A DNA stretch of 64,000 bases from an uncultured Gammaproteobacteria bacterium. Its GTDB lineage: Bacteria > Pseudomonadota > Gammaproteobacteria > Steroidobacterales > Steroidobacteraceae. Under the pieces are notes generated by a model. It saw only the letters and a program-made list of their open reading frames with translations. It did not search any database and was not told the origin of the DNA. Below, piece by piece: positions 29,660 through 45,164 of this stretch. The position numbers and the translations under genes are program-made. The DNA is taken from the NCBI GenBank assembly GCA_963746545.1, contig CAVVBV010000029.1, positions 210,163 to 274,162 of the forward strand, given 5' to 3'. Position 1 is the stretch's first letter. Each line of letters opens with the position of its first letter.

Positions 29660-31944
29660 TTGAAGAGAATCGTCTGCCTGGGCGGCGGCCCTGCCGGCCT
29701 GTACTCGGCCATCCTGTTCAGGAAGACGCTGCCGCGCGCGCGGGTCGAGGTCTACGAGCGCAATCGCCCGGACGACACCTTCGGCTGGGGCGTCGTGTTC
29801 TCCGACCGGACCATGGAAGGGTTCCGCGTCGCCGATGCGCCGACCCACGAGGCGATCACGGCCGGCTTCCATCATTGGGACGACATCGACGTCCATTACC
29901 GCGGCACGACCATCACGCACGGGCGGCCACGGCTTCTGCGGCATCAGCCGCAAGCGCCTGCTGAACATCCTGCAGGAGAGGGCGGCCGGACTCGGCGTCC
30001 ACCAGAGTTTCGAGCACGAGGTCGAAGACGATGCGCCCTACGCGGACGCGGACCTCGTCATCGCCGCCGACGGTGTCAACAGCAGGACCCGCACGCCGCC
30101 ACGCGGCTGTCTTCGAGCCGGACATCGACGTGCGCCAGTGCCGCTTCATCTGGCTCGGCACGAAGCAGTCCTTCCCGGCCTTCACCTTCGCCTTCGAGAA
30201 GACCGAGCACGGCTGGTTCCAGATCCACGCCTACCAGTTCAGCAGCGATCTCTCGACCGTGATCGTCGAGACCCGCGAGGAGACCTGGCGCGCGCACGGG
30301 CTCGACAAGTTCGACCACAGGCAGTCGATCGCATTCTGCGAAAAGCTGTTCGGCAGGTATCTCGGCGGCCATCCGCTGATGAGCAACGCCTTGCACCTGC
30401 GCGGCTCGGCCTGGCTCAACTTCAACCGCGTGCGGTGCAAGCGCTGGCATCACCGCAACCTGGTGCTGATCGGCGACGCCGCGCACACGGCGCATTTCTC
30501 GATCGGCTCGGGCACGAAGCTTGCGATGGAGGACGCGATCGAGCTCACCGCGCGCGTCGCGCATGCGACCGACGTGCCGGCGGGCCTCGTGCGCTACCAG
30601 GAGGAGCGCTCGCTGGAGGCGCTGAAGCTGCAGAGCGCGGCGCGCAACCGGATGCGCTGGTTCGAGGAAGTCGCGCGCTACGTGAACTTCGAGCCCTGGC
30701 AGTTCACCTACAGCCTGCTGACCGGCAGCCAGCGCATCGGCCACGAGAACCTGCGGCTGCGCGACCCGGGTTTCGTGCGCGACGTCGAGACGAAGCTCGC
30801 GGCACAGGCGGGGGCGCCGTCGCCGCGGCCGCCGATGTTCCTGCCCTTCACGCTTCGCGGCATGAAGGTGGAGAACCGCGTCGTCGTCTCGCCGATGGCG
30901 CAGTACCTCGCGAAGGACGGCATGCCCGATGACTGGCACCTCGTGCATCTCGGCGCGCGCGCGACCGGCGGGGCGGGGCTCGTGTTCACCGAGATGACCT
31001 GCGTGTCGCCGGAAGGCCGCATTTCGCCCGGCTGCACGGGTCTCTGGAACGAGGCGCAGCGCGAAGCCTGGCGGCGCATCGTGGACTTCGTGCACGGTGC
31101 GAGCCCCGCGAAGATCTGCCTGCAGCTCGGGCATTCCGGCCGCAAGGGCTCGACGCAGCTCGGCTGGGAGGAATCCGATCATCCCTTGCCGTCCGGCAAC
31201 TGGGAGACGATCGCGCCGTCGGCCATACCTTATTACGAAGGCATCAGCGCGCCGCCACGTGCGATGACGCGCGCGGACATGGACAAGGTGCTCGCCGATT
31301 ACCTGCGCGCGACGCGCCATGGCGCCGAGGCAGGCTTCGACATGCTGGAACTGCACATGGCGCACGGTTACCTGCTGGCGAGTTTCCTGTCGCCGCTGAC
31401 CAACCGGCGCGCGGACGAATACGGCGGGGTGCTCGCTAATCGCCTGCGCTTCCCGCTGGAGATCCTCGCGGCCGTGCGCAAGGCCTGGCCGGCCGACAAG
31501 CCGCTCTCCGTGCGCCTGTCGGCGAGCGACTGGGCTGACGGCGGCCTGCGCGAGGAGGAGCTGCTCGACATCGCGCGCGCGATGAAGGCCGCCGGCGCCG
31601 ACGCCCTCGACCTGTCGAGCGGCCAGACCGTGCCCTGGCAGAAGCCGGTGTACGGGCGCATGTGGCAGACGCCGTTCTCGGACCAGGTCCGGAACCTCGT
31701 CGGCATCCCGACCATCGCGGTCGGCAACATCTACGAGCCGGATCACGTGAACTCGATCGTGGCCTCGGGTCGCGCGGATCTCTGCGCGCTCGCGCGGCCG
31801 CACCTGGCGGATGCGGCCTGGACGCTGCATGCCGCGGCCGCACAGGGCTATCGGGAGCAGTGGTGGCCGAAGCCCTACGAGACGGCGCGGCGCCAGCTCG
31901 AGCGCAATCTCGAGCGCGCAGCGCAGATGGCGGGGCCGGTCTGA
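29660..31944 (+). pseudogene. 2-aminobenzoyl-CoA monooxygenase/reductase-like flavoprotein (FAD monooxygenase plus OYE-type reductase) with two +1 frameshifts
   Basis: Piece 1: [15 protein letters not shown]...HYRGTTIT, to ~29922. Piece 2: [18 protein letters not shown]...ADGVNSRTR, to ~30095. Piece 3: [21 protein letters not shown]... continuing into the OYE-like C-terminal half, to 31944. Each break can be explained by one extra G or C. Confidence 0.7.
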
Positions 31945-32435
31945 TGCCGCGCACGGCAACCGACGTCGAGACCCGCGTCGCGAGCGACGACCACGCGGCG
32001 ATCCGGCTGTGGCTGCGCATGCTCGCGACCAACCGGCTGATCGAGACGCGCACGCGGCGCCTGTTGCATGAACGGTTCACGACGACGCTGCCGCGCTTCG
32101 ACCTGATGGCGCAGCTCGAGCGCGTGCCGGGCGGGCTCAAGATGGGCGAGCTGTCGAAGCGCATGATGGTGACCGGCGGCAACGTCACCGGCATCACCGA
32201 CATGCTGGAACAGGAAGGCCTGGTCGAGCGCGTGGACGATCCCGACGACCGGCGCGCCTGGCTCGTCAGGCTGACGCCGGCCGGCCGGCGCACGTTCGCC
32301 GCGATGGCGCGCGAGCACGAGCGCTGGGTCGTCGAGGCATTCGGGGCCCTCGGCGCGCGCGAGAAGGCGGTGATGGCGGGCTTCCTCGGCCGCCTGAAGA
32401 CGCATGTTCGGTCACTGGAGGGGCGAGACGCATGA
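31944..32435 (+). CDS. MarR-family transcriptional regulator
   Basis: 163 aa from ATG 31944 (TGATG overlap). Winged-helix block ...[57 protein letters not shown].... Confidence 0.8.
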
Positions 32436-33235
32436 GCATCGAATCGGCAGAGCATTTCCTGTGGCGCGTCGAGGGCCGGGTCGGCCGGGTAACGCTGAAC
32501 CGTCCCGAGCGCAAGAACCCGCTGACCTTCAAGTCGTATGCGGAACTGCGCGACCTGTTCCGCGCGCTGACGACGGACAACGACGTGCGTGCGGTCATCA
32601 TCGACGGCGCGGGCGGGAACTTCTGCTCCGGCGGCGACGTGCACGAGATCATCGGGCCGCTGACGAAGATGAACAAGCCGGGGCTCCTGAACTTCACGCG
32701 CATGACCGGTGACCTGGTGCGCGCGATGCGTGCCTGCCCGCAACCGATCATCGCGGCCGTCGACGGCACCTGCGCCGGCGCCGGCGCCATCATCGCGCTC
32801 GCCTCGGATTTCCGCTTCGCGACGCCCGCCGCGCGCACCGCCTTCCTGTTCGTGCGCGTGGGACTCGCCGGCTGCGACATGGGCGCCTGCGCGATGCTGC
32901 CGCGCGTGATCGGCCAGGGCCGCGCCGCGGAACTCCTCTACACCGGGCGCTCGTTCACCGCGGAGGAGGGCGAACGCTGGGGCTTCTACAATTCGATCGT
33001 GCCGGCCGAGGGGCTGCTGCACGAGGCGATGAAACTCGCCGGCGAGATCGCCGCCGGCCCGACCTTCGCGCATGCGATGACGAAAAAGATGCTGCATCGC
33101 GAATGGAACATGGCGATCGACGAGGCGCTCGATGCGGAGTCGAAGGCGCAGGCCGTGTGCATGCAGACCGCCGATTTCAAGCGGGCTTATGAGGCTTTCT
33201 CCGCGAAGCGCAAGCCGGTTTTCGAGGGCAACTGA
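32432..33235 (+). CDS. Enoyl-CoA hydratase/isomerase family protein
   Basis: 267 aa. Crotonase blocks [21 protein letters not shown] and [16 protein letters not shown]. Confidence 0.85.
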
Positions 33236-34423
33236 TGGCCACGCAGAACGATCACCTGATATGGCCCTTCTTCGATGAGCCGCACCGTCGGCTCGCCGCG
33301 GAGGCGCGCGACTGGGGCCAGGCGAACCTCGCCGGCGCCGCGCATCCGATGGATCGCGCGGGCGTGGATGCGCGCTGCCGTGCGCTTGTCGCCGCATTGG
33401 GCCGGGCGGGCCTGTTGAAGCACTGCCTGCGCGCCGAAGACGGCGGTGCGAGCGCGGAATTCGACGCCCGCTCGCTCTGCATCCTGCGCGAGTCGCTCGC
33501 CTGGTGGGACGGGCTCGCCGATTTCTCGTTTTCGATGCAGGGCCTCGGCAGCGCGCCGCTGACGCTTGCCGGCAGCGACGCCTTGCGGGCCCGCTACCTG
33601 CCGCGCGTCGCGAAGGGCACGGCGATCGCCGCATTCGCGCTGTCGGAGCCCGAGGCTGGCTCCGATGCCGCCGCGATGCAGGCGAGCGCGCGCCGCGACG
33701 GCGCGCATTACCGGCTGGACGGCAGCAAGACCTGGATCTCGAATGGCGGCATTGCGGACTTCTATTGCGTGTTCGCACGCACCGAGGCCGCGAAGCCGCG
33801 CGCCGACGGCAGCGCCTCGGCCGAGGGAATCAGCGCCTTCGTCGTGGAGCCGGGCGACCCGGGATTCTCCGTCGCCGAGCGCATCGACGTGATGGCGCCG
33901 CATCCGCTCGCGCGGATCAGCTTCGCCGATTGCCGCATCCCGGCCGACCGGCTGATCGGGGAGGAAGGCGAGGGCTTCAAGATCGCGATGCGCACGCTCG
34001 ACGTGTTCCGCACTTCGGTCGCGGCCGCCGCCTGCGGCTTCGCGCGCCGCGCGCTGGACGAGGCGCTGAAGCACGTGCTCGAGCGTTCGATGTTCGGCCG
34101 CCGGCTTGCCGAGTTCCAGCTGACCCAGGCTGCGCTCGCCGAGATGGCGACGGGCATCGAGGCCGCGCAGTTGCTGACCTATCGCGCCGCCTGGCTGCGC
34201 GATCGCGGCGACCGTTTTACCGCTGCGGCCGCGATGGCCAAGCTGACCGCGACCGAGACCGCGCAGTCGGTCATCGACCGCGCATTGCAGATGTTCGGCG
34301 GGCGCGGCGTGACGCATGGCGAAGTCGTCGAGAGCCCTGTATCGCGAGATCCGTGCGCTCCGGATCTACGAGGGCGCGAGCGAAGTGCAGAAGCTGGTCA
34401 TCGGCCGGGAGCTGCTGAAATGA
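33235..34423 (+). pseudogene. Acyl-CoA dehydrogenase with one +1 frameshift near the 3' end
   Basis: The ACAD sequence reads to ...[15 protein letters not shown] at ~34335. The conserved C-terminus [29 protein letters not shown] continues in the next frame and stops at 34421-34423. One extra C in AGCCCTG explains the shift. Confidence 0.7.
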
Positions 34424-34813
34424 TCCGCCAGACCCTGCAACCGCCGGGCTGGCCGAGGCCGCTCGGTTATGCCAATGGCATCGCCGCCGAGGGCCGGCAG
34501 GTCTTCATTTCCGGCCAGATCGGCTGGAATGCGGAGCAGAAATTTGCGAGCGACGAACTGGCCGCGCAGGTCCGCCAGGCGCTCGACGAATGTCGTCGAG
34601 GTGCTCGCCTGCGCCGGCGGGAGGCCGGAACAGCTCGTTCGCCTGACCTGGTACGTCACGAGCCGCGAGGAGTATTACGCCTCGATCGAGGGCATCGGCG
34701 CGGCCTATCGCGAGGTCATCGGCCGGCATTTCCCGGCGATGTCGGTCGTCGTCGTGGCGGGGCTCCTCGAGCCGCGCGCGAAAGTCGAGATCGAGGCGAC
34801 CGCGGTCCTGTAG
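34420..34813 (+). pseudogene. RidA/YjgF-family protein with one +1 frameshift
   Basis: [36 protein letters not shown]...VRQALD in one frame. After ~34588 it continues as NVVEVLACAGGRPEQLVRLTWYVTS...VEIEATAVL* in the next frame. Confidence 0.65.
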
Positions 34814-34828
34814 GAGCCTGCCAGCCTC

Positions 34829-36373
34829 TCAGGCCCGGTAGATTGCGCGCAGCTCGCGCTTCAGCAGCTTGCCATTGGGATTGCGCGGCAGTTTCGCGAC
34901 GCACTCGATGCGAGCGAGGCGTTGCTGCTTGCCCAGGCGCTCGTTAACCCAGCTGCGGATGGCCTCGCTGTCCATGTTCGCGTGGCCGGGTCGCAGCACG
35001 ACGAGCCCGAGCGGCGTCTCTCCCCATTTCTCGTGCGGAATGCCGATCACGCCGCAATCGAACACGGCCGGATGTTCCTTCAGCACCGCTTCGATGTCAG
35101 CCGGATAAATATTCTGGCCGCCTGACAGGATCATGTCCTTCTTGCGATCCACGATGTAGAGATAGCCCTCCTCGTCGACACGCCCCAGGTCGCCGGTGCG
35201 AAGCCATTGCCTTCCCTGCTGGTCCCGCCACAGCGTTTCCGCGGTCGCCTCCGGCCGGTTGTGATAGCCGCTCATGACGAAGCGCGACCAGCCCACGATC
35301 TCGCCAACCGCGTCGGGTGGCAATTCATGGCCCGCGTCGTCGATGATCGCGAGATCCGTACCCGGGATTGGCTTGCCGACCGAAGCCGTGCGGCTCTCGA
35401 CATCCTCCGGATCCAGCGTCGTGATGATGCCCTCGGTAAGGCCATAGAGTTCGATCAGGCCGCAGCCGAATTGCCGTGCGACACGCCGCTTGAGCGCGGG
35501 ATGCATTGGCGAGCCGACCGTGCAGAGCCAGCGCAGCGAACGCAGGTCATGGCGCGCAAAGTCCGATTGCTCGACGATCAACTGGAACTGCAGCGGCACC
35601 ATCGCCGCATGCGTGCAGCGATGGCGCTCGACGAGAGCGAGGAATTCCGCCGCGTCGAAATGCTCCATGACGACGATCGCGCCGCCGACCAGGAAGCTGC
35701 AGAGCATCGCGACCCAGCTGATGTTGGAGAATAGCCCGACCGGGCACAGCGCGATCGCGGCCGAGTCGTAGCGCAGCGCGAGCCCCACGTCGTAGGCCCA
35801 TTCGATGCGCCGGCGATGCGAGTGCACGATGCCCTTTGGCATGGCCGTCGTGCCCGAGCTGTAGATGATGTTGCAGGGATCGTCGGGTTGCGGCACGACC
35901 GTGCAGCGTCCGGCATGCGCGGCGTCGCGCCAGGCCGCGTAATCGGTCCAGCCCGCGCCGCCGTCCACGCAGATCCAGGCGCCATCCGCGACCTGCGGCA
36001 GGCGTGAACGCATCGACTCCAGCCGCGCGCGCTGCGCGGGCGTCGCGACGATGACGCCCACGCCCGCATCGCGCAGCATCCGTTCGACGCCGTCGTCCGA
36101 CACCGAGAGATTCAATGGCACGACGCAGGCGCCGGCCTTCATCACGCCGAACAGCACCTCGACCATCGGGATGCCGTTGTTCATCAGCACGCCGACGGTA
36201 TCGCCGCGACCGGCCCCCAGCCGCACAAGCGCATTCGCGACGCGTTCGGTATTTCGGTCTAACTCTGCCCACGAAAGCGTCGTGGCGCCGCAGATGAGCG
36301 CCGGGCTGTTGCGCCGCCAGCGCGCGTTGAGGCGCAGGATGTCCGAAATGAGCGGCGCGGGTGCGGGGATCAC
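34829..36373 (-). CDS. AMP-dependent acyl-CoA synthetase/ligase
   Basis: The start is set at GTG 36373 (VIPAPAPLISDILRLNARW...), giving 514 aa. Motifs IIYSSGTTAMPKGIVHSH, WLRTGDLG and PRNPNGKLLKREL. The upstream part of track ORF 34829..36535 is Arg-rich junk. Confidence 0.75.
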   Translation of the reverse strand: MIPAPAPLISDILRLNARWRRNSPALICGATTLSWAELDRNTERVANALVRLGAGRGDTVGVLMNNGIPMVEVLFGVMKAGACVVPLNLSVSDDGVERMLRDAGVGVIVATPAQRARLESMRSRLPQVADGAWICVDGGAGWTDYAAWRDAAHAGRCTVVPQPDDPCNIIYSSGTTAMPKGIVHSHRRRIEWAYDVGLALRYDSAAIALCPVGLFSNISWVAMLCSFLVGGAIVVMEHFDAAEFLALVERHRCTHAAMVPLQFQLIVEQSDFARHDLRSLRWLCTVGSPMHPALKRRVARQFGCGLIELYGLTEGIITTLDPEDVESRTASVGKPIPGTDLAIIDDAGHELPPDAVGEIVGWSRFVMSGYHNRPEATAETLWRDQQGRQWLRTGDLGRVDEEGYLYIVDRKKDMILSGGQNIYPADIEAVLKEHPAVFDCGVIGIPHEKWGETPLGLVVLRPGHANMDSEAIRSWVNERLGKQQRLARIECVAKLPRNPNGKLLKRELRAIYRA

Positions 36374-36606
36374 GGGGTGGCCTTGCCCAGGCCGCGGCGA
36401 ATGTGACGAATGCCGTGTTCGGCATCCGCGGCGGCGGCGCCGATGCCGCTTCCGACCCCGGTGATGAGGATGTTGCGTTCTTGCAAGACGCCCCCTGCGC
36501 TTGACAGTAACGCCCGGTGAACCGGGCGGCCTCATACGTTAGTACTATTCACGCGGTACTACTCGATGGCCGACAGTTCGCTGCAGACTCGCCTGGGGAT
36601 CCTGAA

Positions 36607-36827
36607 ATGAAGCACCGGAAATTGGCGGGCGCGAAGCCCATGGCCGCGTTACTCGCGGCGGCCGTCGCCGTTCCGGCGGCGGGCGCGCAGCCGGCGAAAT
36701 CGTCGGACGACCGAATCCGGAGGGTCTTCGACGGCCCGATGACGACTTGTTGAGCGCCGGGCTTGGGGTGGAGGGGCTGCGCGGGCCCGCGCCGGGATTT
36801 GCCGATCCGGCGAAGCCCACGGCCTGA
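36607..36827 (+). pseudogene. N-terminal ~70-codon fragment of a 3-hydroxybutyrate-oligomer-hydrolase-like secreted protein, frameshifted and truncated
   Basis: Signal peptide MKHRKLAGAKPMAALLAAAVAVPAAGA...RRVFDG. After a -1 shift (~36735) it reads DDDLLSAGLGVEGLRGPAPGFADPAKPTA*, which resembles the conserved N-terminal DDLLTAGLG block of that ~700-aa family. The sequence ends exactly at the AT-island border. Confidence 0.45.
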
Positions 36828-37636
36828 ATTTATTTTATATATACTGATTTGCAGCGCAATAAAAATTTTGAACGGTGATGCTATAATATGTTTTAATGAA
36901 TGCAGACTTAATTAAATATAGTTGAAATTGTACATTATAGTGTAGCTGGTTGGGCAATATTGATGAAGATCTGCTACGGGAGACAGTATGTAGATGATCG
37001 GTGCGATAGCTGGTTCTCATTGTTGACATGCATAATATCTGTGATATTCGCGCTTGATTATTTAATTTTATTTAATAAAATTAATTAATATTAAATTTAA
37101 TTTTTTTATTTTTTTTTAAATTATAATTTAAAGCGTTGCGCTGATCGTAATATAATAATTTATTATTATAATTTATATTATTTTATATGATTTTTATAAT
37201 TATATTTTGATAAATATTGTAATGATTATTAATTACGATGACGAGGTTAAGATAGACTGGATGATAATAATATTATTAATATTATTATATTTTGATCGGT
37301 TGGCTCTGGTTGCATGCATGTTCATTCGCGCACGCGCTGCATGCGATCGATTCTACACGCATATGTTCCGAGTCGGCATCAGTACTTCGAATCTATTGCT
37401 ATTTCTCTCTCCCATGCAGACAAAGCGGCGCTGATCATTTTATAAATTTTTATATTATATATTATTAAATATATTATTAATTTATTAATAATATAAATAT
37501 ATATAATTTAATATATTAAATATAATATTATTATATTTATTATAAATTAAATATTATATATTATTATTATTTTATTTAAATATATTAATATATTTATATT
37601 TATTTATATCTGCGCTTGCGTGCTTTGTTATTAATC
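36828..37636. other. Extreme A+T-rich, largely non-coding island
   Basis: The composition flips relative to the flanks. There are G/C-free runs at 37057-37132 (76 nt), 37148-37188 (41 nt) and 37437-37609 (173 nt). Short GC-normal patches are interspersed. There is no convincing ORF, tRNA or transposase. Confidence 0.9.
36996..37436 (+). repeat. Two degenerate tandem copies of the 5' region of the downstream DoxX-like gene, each followed by an A/T-only spacer
   Basis: Copy 2 (37294-37436) shares collinear identical words with the gene copy (37633-37780): TCGCGCACGC, TCTACACGC, TCCGAGTCGGC, CAGTACTTCGAATC and GCATGTTCAT. Copy 1 (36996-37056 plus 37130-37146) shares GATCGGT, CTGGTT, CATGCAT, ATTCGCGC and the tail AAAGCG..GCGCTGATC. 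The period is about 290-345 nt. Confidence 0.6.
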
Positions 37637-37638
37637 GG

Positions 37639-38130
37639 GTGGCACTGGGCTGCATGTTCATCGCGCACGCCCTGCTGAAATGCGTCGTCTACACGCTGTC
37701 CGAGTCGGCCCAGTACTTCGAATCGCTCGGCATTCCGGGCTGGCGCATCGTGGGAGTTGATTATTGCTGTGCTGGTGTATTGCACATCTGGGTACTACGG
37801 AGATGGCAGCGGAGTGTTGGATTTGGACTTACGTCGCACGATATGCTGTTATGCTATTCCAGGTTGCTCGCGAATCTCGTCGGCATATCCGGGCTAGCAT
37901 CGCTGTCGCCTACGTCGTCACGATTCGTCGAGATCGTCGGTGGCACGGCTGGTGCTCGGCATCGTCACGCTGGGCTGCCCGCCGCTGCTGCCGGTGCTCC
38001 TGGGAACGCGTGGGTGCACTCGGAATGGCGGCTCTTCACCTCTCCGAATGGAAGGCTGGGAATGTTCTGGAGCCTGGGCGCGGCGACGTTCGGGCTCGTG
38101 GCGGGCTCGCAATTCGGGCGGCGCTCACTG
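37639..38130 (+). pseudogene. DoxX-family membrane protein remnant with multiple frame disruptions
   Basis: DoxX-like segments are scattered over three frames: VALGCMFIAHALLKCVVYTLSESAQYFESLGIPGW, ASIAVAYVVTI, VEIVGG, ARLVLGIVTLG.PPLLPVLLGT, WVHSEW.LFTSPNG, GWE and FWSLGAATFGLVAG. The middle part (about 37740-37900) is visibly AT-enriched. The 3' limit is approximate. Confidence 0.5.
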
Positions 38131-40088
38131 ATCGAGCGCGTGCAGGCCAACTCGTTCGTCGAGGCGCAGGCGGCAGGCGGTGCGCCGGGCGTGTGGGCGC
38201 CCGCACAGGAGCTGACCGTCAAGGAACTGCGCCCGCTGGTGGAACGATTCATCGGCAGCAACCGCGCGGCGCGGCATTTCGCGGATCTCGGCTGGCGGGG
38301 CGGCGAGGACGCGCGCGCGAGCGCCCAGCAGCTCGAGGCGACGCAGAAGCTGCTCGCATCGGTCCTGGGCGCGTCATCCGCGCAGCGCCTCGTGGACGTG
38401 GCTGTCGCCGGGCGCGAGGTGCCGCTCGAGGACGTCGTGTCGATCGTCGACGAGGCCTCGCAGGCGCTCGAGTTCAGCCATGAACTGTTGCAGTCGTCAT
38501 TGGAAAACGTCAGTCAGGGCATCAGCGTGGTCGACGCGGAGCTGCGGCTCGTCGCATGGAATCGCCGATACGCCGAGTTCTACAGGTACCCGCCAGGTTT
38601 CCTGCGCATTGGCCAGCCGATCGAGGAATTGCTGCGTTGCAACGCGGAGCGCGGCGAACTGGGACCTGGCGACACGGACGAGCTCGTCGCGCGACGGCTT
38701 GGCCATCTGCAACGCGGCACCCCCTATACTTTCCAGCGCACGCGCCTCGACGGCACCGTGCTCGAGATCCGCGGCAATCCGATGCCCGGCGGGGGTTTCG
38801 TCACGAGCTTTGCGGACGTCACCGAGTACAAGCGTGCGGAAGAGGCGCTCCGGGTCGCGAACGAGTCACTCGAGCAGCGCGTGCGCGAACGCACGCGGGC
38901 GCTGTCCGCGATGAACGACGAATTGCTGGCGGCGAAAGCGGAGGCCGAACGCGCGAATGCCGGCAAGACGCGCTTCCTGGCCGCCGCTGGCCACGACCTG
39001 ATGCAGCCGCTCAACGCCGCGGGCCTGTTTGCCGGCGCGCTCGCGCAGAAAAGCCGGGGCGCGGAACAGCGTGCGCTGCTCGCCGACCTCGAGGAATGCC
39101 TGCATTCCGCCGAGGGCCTGATCTCCGACCTGCTGGACATTTCGCGGCTCGACACCGGCGCGATGCGGACGCAGGTCATGGACGTGCCACTCGCCAGCGT
39201 CTTCGATGCGCTCGACGCCGAGTTCCGCCTGACGGCCGGCAAGAGGCGCATTGCGCTCGCGGTCCACAGGAGCCGCGCGATCGTGCATTCAGATCCGAAA
39301 TTGCTGCGGCGCGTGCTGCAGAACTTCGTTGGCAACGCGCTGCGCTACACGCCCGCCGGGCGCGTGGTCGTCGGCGTGCGGCGCCGCGGCGGGCGCGTTC
39401 GTGTCGAAGTTTGGGATACCGGCATCGGCATCACCCCGGAGCAGCAGCCGCATGTATTCGAGGAGTTCTACCGCGGCAGCGGCCGGCGCGACGCTGATGA
39501 CACGCGCGGCTTCGGTCTCGGACTCGCGATGCTGAGCTCATTGCGTGCGTGCTCGGGCATGCGGTCGGATTGCGCTCGACGCCCGGCCGCGGCTCGGTCT
39601 TCTGGATCGAAGTCGAACGTGGCCAGACAACCGCACCGGTCGCCATTCCCGAGCCGCGCCAGCGCCCGACGGGTGCGCTGGCCGGCATCCGCGTGTTGTG
39701 CATCGACAACGACTCGGCGGCGCTCAGGGGCCTTGCCACATTGCTGAATTCCTGGGGCTGCGAAACGCTCGCGGCGCCGGGCATCGAGGACCTGGTTGAG
39801 CACCGGCGCCTGCAGGGCTTCCGGCCGCATGTCATCGTCGTGGACTACCATCTCGAAGGCGGCGTCACGGGACTCGATGTCGTACAGCATCTGCGCGCGG
39901 TCGAAGGCATTCGTGCGCCGGTGCTCGCGGTGTCGGCGGACGCGAGCGATTCCGTGCGCGCGGAGGCAGAGGCATTGGATTGCGTGTTCCTGCGCAAGCC
40001 CCTGAAGCCGCTCGCGGTGCGTAGCGCGCTTGCGCGACTGCTGGAAACTGCCCGGCCCGCCGCCAGTGACGACGCGGCGGCCTTGTGA
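38131..40088 (+). pseudogene. Hybrid sensor histidine kinase/response regulator (PAS-HisKA-HATPase-REC), apparently lacking its N-terminal sensor/membrane module, with a -1 frameshift
   Basis: PAS-like ...VSQGISVVDAELRLVAWNRRYAEFYRYPPG...EIRGNPMPGGGFVTSFADVTEYKRAEEAL. H-box FLAAAGHDLMQPLN, N-box NFVGNALRYTP, G1 VWDTGIGI, G2 GFGLGLA. The frame breaks at ~39529. It then continues AELIACVLGHAVGLRSTPGRGSVFWIEV plus a REC domain (VVDYHL...LRKPLKP). There is no own start codon or RBS; it is in frame with the DoxX remnant. The 5' limit is approximate. Confidence 0.6.
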
Positions 40089-40151
40089 CCCGAGAATCGA
40101 TTCGTGACGCCCAAACCGGCAACTGCCGCTGCGAGCGCCCGTCCCCGGGCG

Positions 40152-40808
40152 TTAACGCGCAGGCGACTGACCGGGATCGGCGATTTCGAGTTCGCGGAAC
40201 ACGAGTGAAGCCTGGGTCCGGTTGCGCACGCCGAGCTTCGCGAGCGCGGCGGAGACATGCGCCTTGACGGTCGTCTCCTCGATCGAGAGCTCGGCGGCAA
40301 TCTGCTTGTTGAGACGGCCGAGCGCGACCAGTTCAAGCACGCGGTATTGCTGCGGCGTCAGGCTGTTGAACCGCGCTGCGAGCAGTTCCTTGCCCTCGGC
40401 CGGGCGGCGCGCGGAGAGCGCGGTGCCGGGCGGGAACCACTGGCCGCAATGCGCCACCGTGCGGATTGCCGTGATCAGATCGACCTGCGCGACCGACTTG
40501 GGGACATAGCCGGCGGCGCCAAATGTCCGCGCCTGGGCGATCACGTCCGGATCCTCGTTGGCCGAGACGATCATCACTGCCGTTCCCGGGAACTGATTCC
40601 GCAGCCACGCGAGCGGTGCAAAACTCTTCGCACCCGGCATCAGCAGGTCGAGCAGCACGAGGTCGGGTTCCGGCAGGGCGCTTGCTGCCGCGCGCAGCGA
40701 ATCGACGTCGTGAGCCTCGGTCGTCTCGGCGTCCGGCACGGCCTGAAAAGAGCGCCGGCGTAACGCGGCCCGGAACAACGGATGGTCGTCCGCGATGAGA
40801 ACCCGCAT
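40152..40808 (-). CDS. LuxR/FixJ (NarL-type) response regulator
   Basis: 218 aa. REC domain MRVLIADDHPLFR...LVLLDLLMPG and a C-terminal HTH LTPQQYRVLELVALGRLNKQIAAELSIEETTVKAHVS. Confidence 0.85.
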   Translation of the reverse strand: MRVLIADDHPLFRAALRRRSFQAVPDAETTEAHDVDSLRAAASALPEPDLVLLDLLMPGAKSFAPLAWLRNQFPGTAVMIVSANEDPDVIAQARTFGAAGYVPKSVAQVDLITAIRTVAHCGQWFPPGTALSARRPAEGKELLAARFNSLTPQQYRVLELVALGRLNKQIAAELSIEETTVKAHVSAALAKLGVRNRTQASLVFRELEIADPGQSPAR

Positions 40809-40817
40809 GCGCGTATC

Positions 40818-41702
40818 TTAGAGCGCCGTGCGCGAAATCACATCGCAGACGGCCGCGATCGCTGCGCCGCGCGTCGTCGAGCGGCGCCAGGCGGCGCCGA
40901 TCACGCGCGACGGCGAGGGCGGCGCAAACGGCCGCACGACCAGTCCGCGCGCGGCCGCGAACGGGCCTTCGGCGGAGAGCCGCGGCAACAGCGTGAGGCC
41001 GAGTCCCGCCGCGACCATCTGCCGCAGCGTCTCGAGGCTGGTCGCGCCGAAATCCTGCTCCTCCGTTCCCACCCTGCGGCAGACCTCGAGCGCCTGGTCG
41101 CGCAGGCAATGGCCGTCCTCGAGCAGCAGCAGTTTCTCGCCCGCGAGATCGGCGGGCTTCAGCCGGCGACGTGCCGCCAGGCGGTGACGCTCCGGCATCG
41201 CGACGAGGAAAGCCTCCGCGAACAGCGATCGCGTTTCGAGCCCCTGCGTGTCTGCGGGCAGCGCCAGCAACGCGAGATCGAGCTCCCCGTCCCTGACGCG
41301 CGCGAGCAGCGGCTCGGTCTGGTGCTCGTGCAGCAGCAGTTGCAGCTTCGGCAGCGCGCGCTGCAGGCGCGGCGCAACGCGCGGCAGCAGGTAGGGCCCG
41401 AGCGTCGGGATCAGGCCGATCTTGAGCTGTCCGCCCAGCGGATCCTGGCTGGCGCGGGCGAGGGCGCGGATGTCCTCGGCGTCGCGCAGCATGCGCCGCG
41501 CGCGCTCGACCACCGCGACGCCGGCCGCCGTCAGCGCGACATCCCGCGGCCGGCGCTCGATCAGCGTGACGCCGAGGTATTCCTCCAGCTTCTTCAGCTG
41601 GGCGGACAGCGTCGGCTGGCTGACATGGCATTTTCGCGCGGCGCGGCCGAAATGCCGGGTTTCTGCCAGCGCCACGAGATATTGAAGATCGCGGAGGTTC
41701 AA
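40818..41702 (-). CDS. oxyR: LysR-family hydrogen-peroxide sensor OxyR
   Basis: 294 aa from TTG 41702: (M)NLRDLQYLVALAETRHFGRAARKCHVSQPTLSAQLKKLE. Redox cysteine pair in LLEDGHCLRDQALEVC with OxyR-type spacing. The upstream part of the 478-aa track ORF was dropped. Confidence 0.8.
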   Translation of the reverse strand: MNLRDLQYLVALAETRHFGRAARKCHVSQPTLSAQLKKLEEYLGVTLIERRPRDVALTAAGVAVVERARRMLRDAEDIRALARASQDPLGGQLKIGLIPTLGPYLLPRVAPRLQRALPKLQLLLHEHQTEPLLARVRDGELDLALLALPADTQGLETRSLFAEAFLVAMPERHRLAARRRLKPADLAGEKLLLLEDGHCLRDQALEVCRRVGTEEQDFGATSLETLRQMVAAGLGLTLLPRLSAEGPFAAARGLVVRPFAPPSPSRVIGAAWRRSTTRGAAIAAVCDVISRTAL

Positions 41703-41711
41703 GTTCTGTGC

Positions 41712-41748
41712 ATAGTCAAAGGCTATCGAACAGAAGATAACAATCGAT
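41712..41748. promoter_or_regulatory. OxyR-type operator candidate in the oxyR divergent promoter
   Basis: ATAG-N7-CTAT (41712-41726), 7 nt, then AAGA-N7-CGAT (41734-41748). This approximates the tetranucleotide-spaced OxyR consensus ATAGnt-N5-anCTAT x2. It lies 10 nt upstream of the oxyR start. Confidence 0.4.
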
Positions 41749-41891
41749 GATCCTGATTGCCAGCCCCAGCCCATCCCGGCCCCAACCCGATCCGGCCGCT
41801 TTCTTGCGTCGCCGGCGCCGGCAGCGCAACATTCTCCCTTCACGCGCCCGCAAGAGGCGCGATCAGCGGACTCGCAGCCCCGAGGGGGAGC

Positions 41892-42347
41892 ATGAGCTGG
41901 AAGATCACCCTGGCCGGCGGCGCCGTCTATTACCTCGCCATGTTCGGCGTGTCGATGTTCACGGGCTATTTCATCCATTCGCAGGATGGCGTGCTGGCCG
42001 AGGTGTACCGCGCGACTGCGCCGTTCTGGCGTCCCGAACTCAGCGCGAATCCGCCGGACTTCGGCGTGATGTTCAAGATGTGGATTCCGTCCGGACTGGC
42101 CGGCGCCATGCTGCTGGCGGGCGTTTACTCGGTGGTTCGACAGTCGCTTGCAGGCGCTGCCTGGAAGCGCGGGCTGAAATTCGGCGTCATCGCCGCCATC
42201 TTCGGGTTCGTCGGCATCCTGGGCTATCGGGGGCTGTTCAACCTGCCGGATCAACTCTGGGTCTGGTGGACGATCGGCGCGACGATCATCAACCTGGCCG
42301 GCGGCATCGTGCTCGGCTGGATTGCGCAGAAACTCGTGCCGGCATGA
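41892..42347 (+). CDS. Hypothetical integral membrane protein
   Basis: 151 aa from ATG 41892, preceded by GGGGGAG. About four hydrophobic helices. The track ORF upstream extension was dropped. Confidence 0.5.
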   Translation: MSWKITLAGGAVYYLAMFGVSMFTGYFIHSQDGVLAEVYRATAPFWRPELSANPPDFGVMFKMWIPSGLAGAMLLAGVYSVVRQSLAGAAWKRGLKFGVIAAIFGFVGILGYRGLFNLPDQLWVWWTIGATIINLAGGIVLGWIAQKLVPA

Positions 42348-43183
42348 GTCTCGCCACCCTCGACGCGAAATTTCCGCAGAAGCGCGCGCTGATCACCGGC
42401 GGCGCGAGCGGACTCGGACTTGCGACCGCGGAACTGCTTGCCGCGCGCGGCTGGCGGCTCGGCCTGCTGGACCGCGACGCGACCCGCCTCGCCGCCGTCG
42501 CCGCCGACCTGCGCACGAGGGGTACGCCGCTCTGTGAGGTCTACGCGGTGGACGTGACGGTCGAGGCTGCGGTGAAATCCGCGGTCGACGATTTCGCGGC
42601 GCACTGCGGCGGGCTCGATTTCGCGATGAACTCGGCCGGCGTCGCGGTCGCCGGCGGGATCCTGGAGACGCCCGCGGCGGACTGGAACTGGATCATGGAC
42701 ATCAACGTGATGGGCGTCGCGCATTCCTGCCGCGCGGAACTGCCGCACATGGTCGCCTCGGGCGGCGGCCTCATCGTCAACATCGCAAGCGCGGCGAGCT
42801 TCGCGTGCACCTCGAATTCGAGCGCCTACAGCGCCTCGAAAGCGGCGGTCGTGGCGCTCTCGGAAACGCTGTACCAGGAATTCGCGGACCGGCGGGTACG
42901 TGTCGTCGCTGCGATGCCTGGCTTCTTCCGCACGCGGCTGATGGAACATGCCCGTGCGCCGGCCGGCGCGGCAGGATTCGCGCAGAAAATGATGCAGGCG
43001 TCGAACCTGGAGGCGGATGCGGTCGCACTCGAGATCGTCTCGCGCGCCGCCGCCGGCGCAACGCATATCGTGCTGCCGGCGCGCTATCGCTGGCTGTGGC
43101 GCTTCAAGCGCCTCGCGCCGCGGACCTACCTGGACTGGATGGTGTCGGTGCAAAGGCGCTACGCTGCCCGTGCCCGCAAATGA
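42344..43183 (+). CDS. Short-chain dehydrogenase/reductase (SDR)
   Basis: 279 aa from ATG 42344 (ATGA overlap). TGGASGLG cofactor motif, NSAG, and the YSASK catalytic motif. Confidence 0.85.
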   Translation: MSLATLDAKFPQKRALITGGASGLGLATAELLAARGWRLGLLDRDATRLAAVAADLRTRGTPLCEVYAVDVTVEAAVKSAVDDFAAHCGGLDFAMNSAGVAVAGGILETPAADWNWIMDINVMGVAHSCRAELPHMVASGGGLIVNIASAASFACTSNSSAYSASKAAVVALSETLYQEFADRRVRVVAAMPGFFRTRLMEHARAPAGAAGFAQKMMQASNLEADAVALEIVSRAAAGATHIVLPARYRWLWRFKRLAPRTYLDWMVSVQRRYAARARK

Positions 43184-43190
43184 GGCAACC

Positions 43191-43682
43191 ATGTACCTGC
43201 CGGTAAAACTGCTGCACATCGTCGCGGTCATCGCGTTTCTCGGCAACATCACGACCGGGCTCTTCTGGCACATGCACGCGGCGCGCACGCGCGATGCGCG
43301 CCTCCTCGCGCACACGATGAACGGCATCATCCGCAGCGACCGGCTGTTCACGATGCCGGGCGTCTTCGTGATCATCGCGACGGGAATCCTCACGGCGATC
43401 GCCGGCGGCCTGCCGCTCCTGCGCACCGGCTGGATCCTCTGGACGCTCGTGCTGTTCGCGATCTCGGGCCTGATCTTCATGGCCTTCGTCGGGCCGTTGC
43501 AGCGCCGGCTCCTCGCGCTCGCGCAGGCGGGCTCGACGCAGGGGATTTTCGATTACGCGGGCTACGCGGCCGTGGCGCGACGCTGGGAATTCTGGGGCGC
43601 GGCTGCGTTGCTGACGCCCGCTGCGGGCCTCGTGCTGATGGTCCTGAAGCCGGCGCTCTGGGCGGTCGGCAGGCCCGGCTAG
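43191..43682 (+). CDS. DUF2269-like integral membrane protein
   Basis: 163 aa from ATG 43191. MYLPVKLLHIVAVIAFLGNITTGLFW... with four TM helices. Confidence 0.6.
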   Translation: MYLPVKLLHIVAVIAFLGNITTGLFWHMHAARTRDARLLAHTMNGIIRSDRLFTMPGVFVIIATGILTAIAGGLPLLRTGWILWTLVLFAISGLIFMAFVGPLQRRLLALAQAGSTQGIFDYAGYAAVARRWEFWGAAALLTPAAGLVLMVLKPALWAVGRPG

Positions 43683-44104
43683 TCGAGCGCGCGCAGCGCC
43701 TCGAGCGTCGTCTGTCGCAGAACGTCGATCGCCCCGTCGATGCGCTGAAACGCCGCGTCGTCTTCGACGAGCCCGGTAGAATCGGATTGCCAGACGGTCT
43801 TCAACTCACCTGCGTCCCGGGCAACCTCGGCGGGCATCAGCGCGGCCAGGTCGTTGATCGTCAGCATGTCGGCCCAGCCCATGCGCGGGTCCCCGCGCTG
43901 GTCGCCTTGCGCGTAGTGGGCGTAGAAAATGATCTGCTGCAGCGAGCCGACCTGGGTCAGCAACTGGAAGCCGGCGGCGCGGATGTTGCGGTTGTGCTCG
44001 GTCCGCTCGTTGCGCCAGGTGTTGTAGCCGAGCGCCGACAGCGCAATGACGAGGCTGATGAGCGCCACCATGTTGCTGCGGAGCTGTTCGCGCATGTCCG
44101 GCAT
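43679..44104 (-). CDS. Hypothetical membrane-anchored protein
   Basis: 141 aa. A single N-terminal TM (MVALISLVIALSALGY) and normal amino-acid composition. No family recognised. Confidence 0.45.
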   Translation of the reverse strand: MPDMREQLRSNMVALISLVIALSALGYNTWRNERTEHNRNIRAAGFQLLTQVGSLQQIIFYAHYAQGDQRGDPRMGWADMLTINDLAALMPAEVARDAGELKTVWQSDSTGLVEDDAAFQRIDGAIDVLRQTTLEALRALD

Positions 44105-44164
44105 GGCTTGATGTTAGCGCAGCTGCGAAGGCGCTAGTATTCAGCCCGGGAACCGGGGAAACCA

Positions 44165-44575
44165 TTGGCCAGGCTCGAGAACACAGGTAACCGGGGGCTG
44201 CCTCCGCCGCCAGCCGCCACGCGGCGCGGCGCGAATCCATGGCGGCTCTCCGACACCGCGCGCAGGCCGGAGACGGCGCAGCCGTCGGTAAGCCCGCAGC
44301 TGCTCGAGGAACTGATGAAGAGGGTTCCCGCGGCGGACGTGGCTGCCCGCGAATCCGCGCCGGCCAGGGCCACCGCCAAGCGTGCGCGACCCGGGCTGAT
44401 CGGCCTCGTGATGATCCTGATCGCCGGTTCGATCGTGTTTCGCCTGTTCTTCGACAGGCGGGGCGACGGCGACTGGGTCAAGTTCATCGGCCCGCTGATC
44501 TTCATCGCGATCGTCGCGCACGGCCTGTGGCGGTCCCGACAGCGCCGCGAGGAAGATAAGCCTAGCCAGGGCTGA
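44165..44575 (+). CDS. Hypothetical small membrane protein (start uncertain; may be ATG 44315)
   Basis: Two TM helices (GLIGLVMILIAGSIVFRLFF and FIGPLIFIAIVAHGLW). The N-terminal 50 aa of the track ORF are Pro/Arg-rich and doubtful. Confidence 0.3.
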   Translation: MARLENTGNRGLPPPPAATRRGANPWRLSDTARRPETAQPSVSPQLLEELMKRVPAADVAARESAPARATAKRARPGLIGLVMILIAGSIVFRLFFDRRGDGDWVKFIGPLIFIAIVAHGLWRSRQRREEDKPSQG

Positions 44576-45164
44576 GCGGCTGCTTCCAGACCAGCGTCTG
44601 GTTGTTGGCCGGCATGCGATGGTCGGCCTGCAGCACGAAGCCGATGCCGCGCGCCAGCGCATCCACCGCCTCGAAATCGCGGATGCCGCTCGCGGGATCC
44701 CGCGCCCGCAGCATCTCGTCGAAGGATGCGTTGCTCTCCGAAGTGTATTTTCCCGCGTAACGGAACGGCCCGTAGACTACGAATACGGTGCCGGGTTTCA
44801 GGATCGCAGGAAGGTTTGCGAAAAACGCCTCGACCTCGCGCCAGCTCATGATATGGAGCGTGTTCGCCATGAACACGCCGTCCACGCGCCGCAGGTCCCA
44901 GGGCGGCTGCGTGACGTCGAGTTCGACCGGCGCACGCAGGTTCTTCGGCCCCTCGTAGACGATGCGCTTGCGCAGCCCCGGCATTTCCTCCGCGCGCTCG
45001 CTCGGCTGCCAGACCAGCCACGGCATTTCATTCGCGAAATGCACCGCATGCTGTCCCGTGCCGCTGCCGATCTCGAGGACGTGCTTGCAGCCCGCGAAGG
45101 CCTCGCGCAGGACCTCGAGTATCGGGCCCTTGTTGCGTTCGCAGGCGTCGGAATACGGAAGCAT
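44562..45164 (-). CDS. DUF938-family SAM-dependent methyltransferase-like protein
   Basis: 200 aa. MLPYSDACERNKGPILEVL...VLEIGSGTGQH...ANTLHIMSW are typical DUF938 blocks. Confidence 0.75.
   Translation of the reverse strand: MLPYSDACERNKGPILEVLREAFAGCKHVLEIGSGTGQHAVHFANEMPWLVWQPSERAEEMPGLRKRIVYEGPKNLRAPVELDVTQPPWDLRRVDGVFMANTLHIMSWREVEAFFANLPAILKPGTVFVVYGPFRYAGKYTSESNASFDEMLRARDPASGIRDFEAVDALARGIGFVLQADHRMPANNQTLVWKQPLSPG

What the first reader, a model, noticed from the sequence alone, without database searches (positions are those of the whole stretch)
36996..37780. Degenerate tandem array: the 5' end of the DoxX-like gene is repeated two to three times, each copy followed by an A/T-only spacer
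Segment 37294-37436 is collinear with 37633-37780. They share exact words of 9-14 nt in the same order: GCATGTTCAT, TCGCGCACGC, TCTACACGC, TCCGAGTCGGC and CAGTACTTCGAATC. Substitutions and small indels separate these words. A weaker third copy lies at 36996-37056. Its tail AAAGCGTTGCGCTGATC (37130-37146) matches AAAGCGGCGCTGATC (37422-37436). In this copy the middle is replaced by a 76-nt A/T-only run of similar length (73 vs 86 nt). The older the copy appears, the more A/T-rich it is, which suggests serial duplication with progressive A/T drift or replacement. This module-plus-spacer architecture is unusual for bacteria.
Basis: seen in the sequence. Interest (0 to 1): 0.65.

Follow-up and report, generated by a model that had tools for sequence, protein, structure and literature searches.

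The report
Garbled DoxX patch, probably assembly artefact
A 1.2-kb A/T-rich patch in an otherwise 68% G+C bacterial contig holds noisy, restarted partial copies of one small gene (DoxX). It most likely reflects garbled long-read assembly at a spot where two related bacteria differ in gene content, not a biological repeat array.

Summary
The core observation is real. Window 37292-37393 and 37631-37724 are collinear copies (z = 31 against shuffles). Both are the 5' part of a DoxX gene. The claimed third copy (36996-37056) is not significant.

A 93%-identical relative (L081) shows the true anatomy. One 132-codon DoxX gene is chopped into restarted pieces: codons 7-11, A/T run, codons 12-42, codons 3-11, A/T run, codons 11-48, 123 orphan bases, then codons 40-105.

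The whole patch (36824-38065) replaces 8,188 bases that are intact in another relative (L170). It fuses DoxX to codon ~495 of a sensor kinase.

The copies differ mainly by sprinkled A/T insertions (12 of 12 inserted bases) and not by substitutions. The A/T runs at equivalent positions are unrelated to each other. Error density is more than ten times that of the adjacent pseudogene remnants, and on the right it ends abruptly at 38066.

The contig is a mosaic of an L081-like backbone and L170-like segments (98-99%).

Best reading (~0.7): unpolished or garbled long-read consensus at a structural difference between co-assembled relatives. Natural decay or filler DNA is not excluded (~0.15-0.2). 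Interest is low unless raw reads confirm the sequence.

The parts
36600..36823 (+). Remnant (first ~72 codons) of a 3-hydroxybutyrate-oligomer hydrolase gene (3HBOH). L170-like, with three small indels at 36695, 36714 and 36736 just before the patch.
   Evidence: Matches L170 up to L170 position 9553. The orthologous gene is PF10605 in L167, L168 and L170. Indels and the rise to 14 differences per 100 nt are.
36824..37129 (.). Orphan A/T-rich sequence (GC 0.26) including the 76-nt A/T-only run 37057-37132. It contains the claimed 'third copy' at 36996-37056.
   Evidence: No significant match to DoxX, L170, L081, the window, plasmids, phages or Rfam.
37130..37146 (+). DoxX codons 7-11 (KAALI) with a 2-nt TT insertion. 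This is the head of unit 1.
   Evidence: Aligns to L081 10019-10033, z = 8.3 for the tile.
37147..37293 (.). A/T run 1 (GC 0.12), interrupting DoxX after codon 11.
   Evidence: Not homologous to A/T run 2.
37294..37393 (+). Copy A: DoxX codons 12-42, peppered with A/T insertions.
   Evidence: Aligns to L081 10037-10125. Against copy B it has 12 inserted bases (all A/T), 4 deleted bases and 4 substitutions.
37394..37410 (.). 17 orphan bases between unit 1 and unit 2.
   Evidence: No match.
37411..37437 (+). DoxX codons 3-11, the head of unit 2. The native start codon is missing.
   Evidence: 27/27 identical to L081 10008-10034.
37438..37629 (.). A/T run 2 (GC 0.06; 37437-37609 is pure A/T, 173 nt), interrupting DoxX at codon 11/12.
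37630..37744 (+). Copy B: DoxX codons 11-48. This is the only stretch with ordinary divergence (92%, no indels).
   Evidence: Aligns to L081 10031-10145. Pfam DoxX E = 3e-5.
37745..37867 (.). 123 orphan bases (GC 0.50) inside DoxX.
   Evidence: No significant match.
37868..38065 (+). DoxX codons 40-105. It re-copies 27 nt already present in copy B. It is very noisy: 15 gap events and 22 mismatches in 209 columns.
   Evidence: Aligns to L081 10119-10314.
38066..40088 (+). 3' part of a hybrid sensor kinase/response-regulator gene, starting at about codon 495 of ~1168. It is clean sequence, with one 1-nt deletion near 39530.
   Evidence: Window 38066-39429 matches L170 1364-1 at 92.7% with no indels. 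The deletion is seen against three relatives.

Best explanation
The degenerate array and its A/T-only spacers are most likely not an accurate picture of a genome. They look like a ~1.3-kb stretch (about 36695-38065) of unpolished or garbled long-read consensus inside an otherwise well-polished metagenome contig.

Shown:
- The contig is a mosaic of two related Steroidobacteraceae lineages. The backbone resembles L081, which carries RidA-DoxX-LysR at this locus. Two inserted segments resemble L170, which carries a 13.5-kb block (acyl-CoA synthetase ... sensor kinase, response regulator) at the same locus and no DoxX.
- The patch sits exactly where the two arrangements cannot be reconciled. It replaces 8,188 bases of the L170-type block.
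- It contains one DoxX gene rendered as restarted partial pieces. These are separated by A/T-only bursts and peppered with A/T insertions.

Inferred:
- The source is a long-read (probably Nanopore, Flye-type) metagenome assembly holding both populations.
- The join was carried by one or very few erratic or chimeric reads, or by a consensus of mis-piled reads from both populations. Polishing then could not repair the patch, while the flanks were polished to high quality.
- A DoxX gene, and possibly a real structural junction, exist underneath. The A/T runs, the stuttered re-copies and the indels would then be noise.
For: 1. Extreme composition. Four A/T-only runs of 30-173 nt sit in a 68% G+C window.
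2. Error spectrum. Copy A equals copy B plus 12 inserted bases, all A/T, with only 4 substitutions. The 3' DoxX piece has 15 gap events in 209 columns, whereas copy B has none.
3. A/T runs at the same gene position in both units are mutually unrelated.
4. The noise is confined to the patch and ends abruptly on the right. It ramps up on the left (14 differences and 3 indels in 36700-36799). At 38066 the sequence becomes clean at once: 2-6 differences per 100 nt over the first ~500 nt, and no indels in 1,364 nt against L170. Pseudogene remnants of equal or greater age next door are far less decayed.
5. Mosaic ancestry. Window 25-34.7 kb and 40.8-50.7 kb are closest to L081 (mostly 89-95%; some stretches 80-87%). 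Window 34.7-36.7 kb is 98-99% identical to L170, and 38066-38565 is 97%.
4-nt-scale detail: the DoxX allele in the middle is the L081-type occupant of the very same locus. That points to a homology-driven process such as assembly, consensus or recombination, not random ligation.
6. Four window-specific +1 insertions in the OYE-type oxidoreductase (2), the acyl-CoA dehydrogenase and RidA each lie at a site where L081 and L170 differ. Mixed-population pile-ups would produce this.
7. Provenance. The window's own synthetase (P0121) sits on a 329,714-nt contig in NCBI/ENA. Its closest relatives are on ENA contigs named contig_15373 and contig_23724, of 379 and 795 kb. That is the naming style of Flye. 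A large Nanopore-only Flye + one-round-Medaka soil survey uses such a pipeline (PMC12313526).
8. Unlike those two relatives, P0121 has no exact counterpart in the Logan read-level assemblies.
9. Noise and low-complexity reads are documented Nanopore artefacts (PMC5872496).
Against: - No reads, coverage or quality values are available, so the artefact is inferred and not observed.
- The link of this contig to a Nanopore/Flye project rests on naming style and database sources. Accessions could not be traced.
- No adapter sequence is present in the patch (adapter sequences were recalled from memory).
- I know of no documented mechanism by which a basecaller, Flye or Medaka re-copies the same 100 nt twice.
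- The DoxX-kinase join is clean and lies at a short microhomology, as real illegitimate recombination would give.
- The left crossover lies inside homologous sequence (~34700), as real homologous recombination would give.
- The clustered frameshifts could be genuine decay of an inactivated operon.
Confidence: 0.7

Rival explanations
1. The sequence is accurate and records natural illegitimate recombination. An L081-like recipient (RidA-DoxX-LysR) took up DNA from an L170-like donor. Each side was anchored by homology (RidA 3' end; LysR side) and joined illegitimately inside or next to DoxX, in the manner of homology-facilitated illegitimate recombination. The junction was filled by template-switching synthesis that re-copied DoxX pieces and added A/T-only DNA. 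The disrupted gene then decayed.
For: - DoxX occupies the same locus in L081-type genomes.
- The switch to L170-like sequence occurs ~100 nt inside the shared RidA gene.
- The DoxX/kinase junction has 2-4 nt of microhomology and an 8-nt shared word 22 nt upstream.
- Neighbouring genes carry frameshifts, consistent with a decaying locus.
- The short-chain dehydrogenase (SDR) gene deletion shared with L170 shows that real deletions occur here.
Against: - Filler DNA at bacterial illegitimate junctions is normally a few bases, not hundreds of A/T-only bases (general knowledge, not tested here).
- Re-copied pieces made by a polymerase should be near-exact. They should not carry one indel per ~13 nt with an all-A/T insertion bias.
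- The decay is far greater than in the adjacent remnants that would be the same age.
- No independent assembly carries the junction.
Confidence: 0.15
2. One reading: serial tandem duplication of the DoxX 5' end together with its spacer, followed by progressive GC->AT mutational drift in the older copies.
For: - There are two significant copies.
- Copy A is more A/T-rich than copy B. Its substitutions against L081 lean GC->AT (10 against 3 in the wider copy-A alignment).
Against: - The spacers are not homologous.
- The third copy is not significant.
- Differences are dominated by A/T insertions, not substitutions.
- The divergence would need far more time than the 7% separating the window from L081, during which flanking pseudogene remnants stayed nearly intact.
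- There is no purine/pyrimidine-preserving relation between the A/T runs and native sequence.
Confidence: 0.04
3. The A/T-rich DNA is foreign: a fragment of a low-G+C mobile element, plasmid, phage or eukaryotic/organellar DNA inserted into DoxX and then duplicated.
For: The composition is utterly unlike the host.
Against: - No match in 72,556 plasmids or 50,697 phage records, and no Rfam family.
- There is no ORF, terminal inverted repeat or target duplication beyond an imperfect 4-mer.
- Pure A/T over 173 nt is low-complexity and not gene-like.
- Two unrelated A/T runs sit at the same codon in both units.
Confidence: 0.03
4. Targeted hypermutation of a repeat pair: a template/variable-repeat pair of a diversity-generating retroelement (DGR), or deaminase/RIP-like mutagenesis of duplicated DNA.
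For: There are two ~100-nt repeats with many differences.
Against: - Only 4 substitutions separate the copies (G>T, A>T, C>G, C>T). They are neither adenine-specific nor transition-only, and the rest are indels.
- No transition-collapse signal was found.
- The repeats are fragments of a broken membrane-protein gene, not a variable C-terminal domain.
Confidence: 0.01

Closest known systems
Mis-joined or unpolished consensus in long-read metagenome assemblies (strain- or species-collapsed chimeric contig)
   Same: - Noisy, indel-dominated stretch with an abrupt edge to clean sequence on the right.
- Located at a structural difference between two co-occurring relatives.
- The flanks take the sequence of different populations.
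- Extra single-base indels lie at sites where the populations differ.
   Different: I have no read-level proof. Stuttered re-copies of the same 100 nt and 173-nt pure A/T bursts are not a textbook form of this artefact.
Nanopore noise and low-complexity reads (for example the 'high-quality noise reads' of CarrierSeq, PMC5872496)
   Same: Low-complexity sequence with no match to any database, attributed to pore or translocation problems.
   Different: Those are whole reads. Here noise alternates with recognisable gene pieces inside an assembled contig.
Homology-facilitated illegitimate recombination in naturally transformable bacteria
   Same: Foreign segments of ~2-2.8 kb are anchored on one side in homologous DNA (RidA 3' end; LysR side) and joined on the other at a few bases of microhomology, with loss of recipient sequence.
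   Different: Known junctions carry no filler or only a few bases. They do not carry A/T-only runs or noisy re-copies (from general knowledge).
Templated-insertion 'filler DNA' of polymerase-theta end joining in eukaryotes
   Same: A deletion junction is filled with several short re-copies of nearby sequence that restart at earlier positions.
   Different: This is a eukaryotic enzyme. Its copies are near-exact and tens of bases long, and no A/T-only synthesis occurs.
Ordinary DoxX family gene (PF07681), 132 codons, last gene of a RidA-containing operon in related Steroidobacteraceae
   Same: The pieces add up to codons 3-105 of this gene and are 81-100% identical to the L081 orthologue.
   Different: It lacks a start codon, is interrupted three times, is partly duplicated, is frameshifted, lacks the last 27 codons and is fused to a truncated kinase gene.

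Membership tests
Natural tandem (segmental) duplication | Copies are collinear and more similar than chance. | tested here: met
   z = 31 for 37292-37393 against 37631-37724.
Natural tandem (segmental) duplication | Everything inside the duplicated unit, spacer included, is homologous between the copies. | tested here: not met
   A/T run 1 against run 2: z = -2.1 on the + strand and -0.2 on the - strand, using dinucleotide shuffles.
Natural tandem (segmental) duplication | The kind and amount of divergence fit neutral decay of the neighbourhood. | tested here: not met
   There are three times as many indel events as substitutions, and all 12 inserted bases are A/T. The adjacent kinase remnant has 0 indels in 1,364 nt.
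Regular repeat-spacer array (CRISPR-like or minisatellite) | Three or more repeats of constant length with regular spacing. | tested here: not met
   Only two significant copies exist and the third fails. Tandem Repeats Finder reports only low-complexity A/T periods.
DoxX family (Pfam PF07681) | Sequence match above the curated threshold. | tested here: met
   25 bits against a cut-off of 23.6 for the raw frame. The frame-corrected reconstruction gives 39.2 bits, E = 1.1e-9. It is 70-73% identical to 132-aa DoxX proteins.
DoxX family (Pfam PF07681) | Intact open reading frame. | tested here: not met
   There is no start codon. The gene has three interruptions, frameshifts and a missing 3' end.
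Diversity-generating retroelement template/variable repeat pair | Differences are confined to adenine positions of the template, without indels. | tested here: not met
   The substitutions are G>T, A>T, C>G and C>T, plus 8 insertion events.
Deaminase / RIP-like hypermutation | C>T and G>A transitions dominate, so the purine/pyrimidine pattern is preserved. | tested here: not met
   Transitions are 8 of 17 mismatches. Purine/pyrimidine identity of the A/T runs to native sequence is 42-58% in register.
Long-read assembly / consensus artefact | Indel-dominated errors are confined to a block bounded by clean sequence. | tested here: met
Long-read assembly / consensus artefact | The flanks derive from different populations, or the site is a structural variant between co-assembled genomes. 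| tested here: met
   L081-like backbone against 98-99% L170-like inserts. An 8,188-nt difference lies at the patch. That both populations were in the same sample is inferred.
Long-read assembly / consensus artefact | Read support collapses or reads disagree across the block. | not testable with these tools
   No reads or coverage are available. The window's proteins could not be found on any independent contig.
Homology-facilitated illegitimate recombination | One end lies in homologous DNA and the other at microhomology. | tested here: inconclusive
   The left switch lies inside RidA at ~34700. The right junction has 2-4 nt of microhomology. The left illegitimate junction is buried in unassignable sequence.

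The most novel reading that the evidence does not exclude
The sequence is accurate. A 68% G+C soil gammaproteobacterium repaired an 8-kb deletion / foreign-DNA junction with filler made by a template-switching, A/T-adding DNA synthesis activity. This left up to 173 nt of de novo A/T-only DNA and several stuttered, A/T-peppered re-copies of the neighbouring DoxX gene. It would be a bacterial counterpart of eukaryotic templated-insertion end joining, combined with untemplated A/T synthesis.
Probability: 0.1. Interest if true: 0.75.

Novelty: not a real feature. Interest (0 to 1): 0.12.

Why it matters
If the patch is an artefact, the value is practical:
- It is a clear example of how a long-read metagenome contig can merge two related populations and leave a garbled, A/T-rich stretch in a public genome.
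- That stretch creates a false 'DoxX-kinase fusion' ORF of 702 codons and false repeat architecture.
- Simple screens would flag such patches: A/T-only runs in high-G+C contigs, indel-dominated divergence from close relatives, and abrupt switches of nearest relative.

If raw reads confirmed the sequence, it would be remarkable. De novo A/T-only DNA and stuttered templated filler at a bacterial recombination junction have no described mechanism.

Tried and rejected
- Third copy at 36996-37056. Three scoring schemes with dinucleotide shuffles gave p = 0.2-0.9, and there is no match to DoxX. Rejected.
- A/T runs as transition-collapsed (C>T, G>A) versions of native sequence. Purine/pyrimidine alignments gave z of about 2-3 on both the forward and the reverse-complement reference, which is a composition effect. 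In-register identity was ~50%. Rejected.
- 'G/C erased to A/T' model, in which orphan segments are degraded continuations of the 3HBOH or DoxX genes. An asymmetric-matrix alignment gave p > 0.05 everywhere. An apparent continuation across the left breakpoint (GAATT...CTGA) is not significant. Inconclusive to rejected.
- Homology among the A/T runs: none.
- Sequencing adapters (Nanopore ligation and rapid, SMRTbell, Nextera, TruSeq; sequences from memory): no match above shuffles.
- Foreign origin: no plasmid, phage or Rfam match. No match of the orphan segments to any fetched relative or to the rest of the window.
- A DoxX paralogue elsewhere in the window as a source of the copies: none.
- Independent assemblies of the same junction. 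Exact-protein look-ups of four window proteins found nothing. The three other members of the synthetase's 90% cluster all carry intact blocks.
- The metagenome scan with the synthetase returned only distant relatives (56% or less), so that scan was wasted.
- Tracing ENA/SRA accessions to a publication: no hits, and the supplements are not held.
Full report
**Setting.** The window is uniformly 63-74% G+C per kilobase, except for one kilobase at 37001-38000 (36%). At 100-nt resolution the anomaly runs from about 36800 to 37900. It reaches 0% G+C at 37450-37599. The nearest relatives of the flanking genes are uncultured Steroidobacteraceae.

**Checking the observation.**
- All five quoted words occur once in each of the two segments, in the same order.
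- Smith-Waterman alignment of the two segments scores 96, against 17.6 +/- 2.5 for dinucleotide-preserving shuffles (z = 31).
- The alignment spans only 37292-37393 against 37631-37724.
- The proposed third copy (36996-37056) is no better than shuffles under three gap regimes (p = 0.2-0.9). It does not match the DoxX gene either.
- A/T-only runs of 76, 41, 30 and 173 nt are present.

**What the pieces are.**
- The translated copy B matches Pfam DoxX.
- A frame-corrected reconstruction finds 132-residue DoxX proteins at 70-73% identity, one of them from a Steroidobacteraceae genome.
- Contigs encoding the best hit (L081-L086) are ~93% identical in DNA to the window over tens of kilobases. They carry the order ...acyl-CoA dehydrogenase, RidA, DoxX, LysR....

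Using L081 as a ruler, the patch resolves as follows:

| Window | Content |
|---|---|
| 37130-37146 | DoxX codons 7-11 |
| 37147-37293 | A/T run 1 |
| 37294-37393 | codons 12-42 (copy A) |
| 37394-37410 | 17 orphan bases |
| 37411-37437 | codons 3-11, 27/27 identical to L081 |
| 37438-37629 | A/T run 2 |
| 37630-37744 | codons 11-48 (copy B; 92%, no indels) |
| 37745-37867 | 123 orphan bases |
| 37868-38065 | codons 40-105 (15 gap events and 22 mismatches in 209 columns) |

The A/T runs therefore interrupt the gene at the same codon (11/12) in both units. They do not follow the copies.

**What the patch replaces.**
- More distant relatives (L005, L167, L168) and one close one (L170) carry a block between RidA and LysR. 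The block holds an acyl-CoA synthetase, (a short-chain dehydrogenase), a 3-hydroxybutyrate-oligomer hydrolase, a 330-residue protein, a TonB-dependent receptor, a transporter, an ~1168-residue sensor kinase/response-regulator hybrid and a LuxR-type regulator. The block contains no DoxX.
- Window 27996-36823 aligns without a break to L170 18422-9553. Window 38066-39429 aligns to L170 1364-1.
- The 1,242-nt patch therefore stands in place of 8,188 nt. It leaves the first ~72 codons of the hydrolase and removes the first ~494 codons of the kinase.
- The mechanical 702-codon ORF at 37639-39747 is a fusion of DoxX fragments with the kinase remnant. It is not a gene.

**Mosaic ancestry.**
- In 500-nt tiles the window is closest to L081 at 25-34.5 kb (91-95%, falling to 82-87% at 28.0-29.5 kb) and at 41-50.5 kb (mostly 89-94%, with stretches at 80-87%).
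- From about 34700 to 36700 it is 98-99% identical to L170. At 38066-38565 it is 97%. The synthetase proteins differ at 12 of 514 residues.
- The switch happens about 100 nt before the RidA stop codon, inside sequence shared by both lineages.
- The contig thus combines an L081-type backbone, two L170-type segments and, between them, the L081-type occupant of the same locus (DoxX).

**Why the patch is unlikely to be faithful sequence.**
1. Copy A differs from copy B by 12 inserted bases in 8 events, every one an A or a T. There are also 4 deleted bases and only 4 substitutions. Natural paralogues diverge mainly by substitution.
2. The A/T runs at the same gene position in the two units are unrelated beyond composition. 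Yet the gene pieces that flank them are ~80% identical.
3. Noise is confined to the patch. Differences from L170 rise to 14 per 100 nt, with three indels, in 36700-36799. The DoxX 3' piece has one gap event per ~14 nt. From 38066 there are 2-6 differences per 100 nt over the first ~500 nt, and no indels for 1,364 nt. Remnant pseudogenes created by the same event, or by older ones, are almost undamaged, so neutral decay cannot explain the patch.
4. Four window-specific single-base insertions disrupt the oxidoreductase (29915, 30096), the acyl-CoA dehydrogenase (34333) and RidA (34586). Each lies at a site where L081 and L170 differ. A consensus built from mixed populations would produce this pattern. 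No coding frameshift was found in the other ~15 kb compared with L081: the remaining single-base indels there are intergenic, compensated, or lie at a gene's extreme 3' end.
5. No biological source for the orphan or A/T DNA was found. There are no plasmid, phage or Rfam matches. There is no match to relatives or to the rest of the window. No transition-collapse or G/C-erasure relation to native sequence appeared.

**Provenance (inference).**
- The window's synthetase is listed as the window's own protein on a 329,714-nt contig held by NCBI and ENA.
- Its cluster mates sit on ENA contigs named contig_23724 (795 kb) and contig_15373 (379 kb). This naming and contiguity are typical of Flye long-read metagenome assemblies.
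- A national soil survey used exactly such a Nanopore-only pipeline with one round of Medaka (PMC12313526). I could not link the accessions to it.
- The two cluster mates are reproduced exactly in Logan read-level assemblies. The window's protein is not. This is weak evidence for low or mixed support.
- Nanopore runs are known to emit low-complexity and noise reads (PMC5872496).

**Most likely mechanism.**
- The sample held an L081-like and an L170-like population.
- Their shared flanks (about 82-92% identical over the 9 kb to the left) let the assembler or polisher combine them.
- At the locus where one has 0.46 kb (DoxX) and the other 13.5 kb, the path was carried by one or a few erratic or chimeric reads, or by mis-piled reads.
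- Polishing fixed the flanks with abundant reads but could not fix the bridge.
- The A/T bursts and the sprinkled A/T insertions look like one and the same noise process at different intensities.
- The mosaic, the error spectrum and the boundaries are shown. The read-level events are inferred.

**What argues the other way.**
- The DoxX/kinase junction is clean and has 2-4 nt of microhomology.
- The left crossover lies in homologous DNA.
- The locus is demonstrably prone to real rearrangement. The dehydrogenase deletion is shared with L170, and the whole block is absent in L081.
- No adapter was found.
- I know no documented way for a basecaller or polisher to re-copy 100 nt twice.

A real homology-facilitated illegitimate recombinant, whose junction region is either truly strange or merely badly read, therefore remains possible. 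I put about 0.7 on noise. I put about 0.15 on an accurate sequence produced by illegitimate recombination with filler.

**Comparison with known things.** The patch fails the tests for a natural tandem duplication (spacer homology, divergence spectrum). It also fails those for a regular repeat-spacer array, a DGR repeat pair and deaminase/RIP-type mutation. It meets the sequence-level criteria of an assembly or consensus artefact. The decisive criterion, read support, cannot be tested here. The gene fragments are ordinary DoxX.

**Verdict.** The duplication is really in the sequence as given, but it is most probably not a real genomic feature. Interest is low (0.12). If reads confirmed it, it would be a very unusual case of de novo A/T DNA and templated filler in a high-G+C bacterium (probability ~0.1, interest ~0.75).

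Noticed in passing
window 34700-36823 and 38066-40818, against 25000-34700 and 40819-50670: The contig is a mosaic. The backbone is closest to L081 (mostly 89-95%; some stretches 80-87%). The synthetase/hydrolase-remnant segment is 98-99% identical, and the start of the kinase remnant 97% identical, to a different relative (L170). The switch point is ~100 nt inside the RidA gene. This is either recent recombination between co-occurring species or a chimeric assembly.
   Followed up: partly
window 36824-38065 against L170 1365-9552: 8,188 nt are missing relative to L170. The missing stretch holds most of a 3-hydroxybutyrate-oligomer hydrolase, a 330-aa protein, a TonB-dependent receptor, a transporter and the first ~494 codons of a sensor kinase. 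In L081-type genomes the entire ~13.5-kb block is absent and DoxX sits in its place, so the RidA-LysR interval is a hotspot of gene-content variation in this family.
   Followed up: partly
window 29915, 30096, 34333, 34586: Four window-specific +1 insertions frameshift the FAD/old-yellow-enzyme oxidoreductase (twice), the acyl-CoA dehydrogenase and RidA. None lies in a long homopolymer. Each lies at a site where relatives L081 and L170 differ. No coding frameshift was seen in the other ~15 kb compared.
   Followed up: partly
window ~39530: A 1-nt deletion relative to three relatives splits the kinase remnant from its receiver domain (ORFs 37639-39747 and 39549-40088).
   Followed up: partly
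window 36376-36435: The short-chain dehydrogenase gene found between the synthetase and the hydrolase in L005, L167, L168 and L171 is reduced to ~60 nt. Only its N-terminal Rossmann motif, NILITGVGSGIG, is left. L170 lacks the gene too, so this looks like a real inherited deletion.
   Followed up: partly
window ~40745-40765 (minus strand, LuxR-type regulator 40152-40808): Residues 17-22 read RRRSFQ where relatives have RLALTQ. This looks like a compensated -1/+1 frameshift over a few codons. It was read from the translations only.
   Followed up: no
window 41749-41850: A cluster of seven small deletions (38 nt in total) relative to L081 lies in the LysR / next-gene intergenic region. It is probably ordinary intergenic variation.
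   Followed up: no
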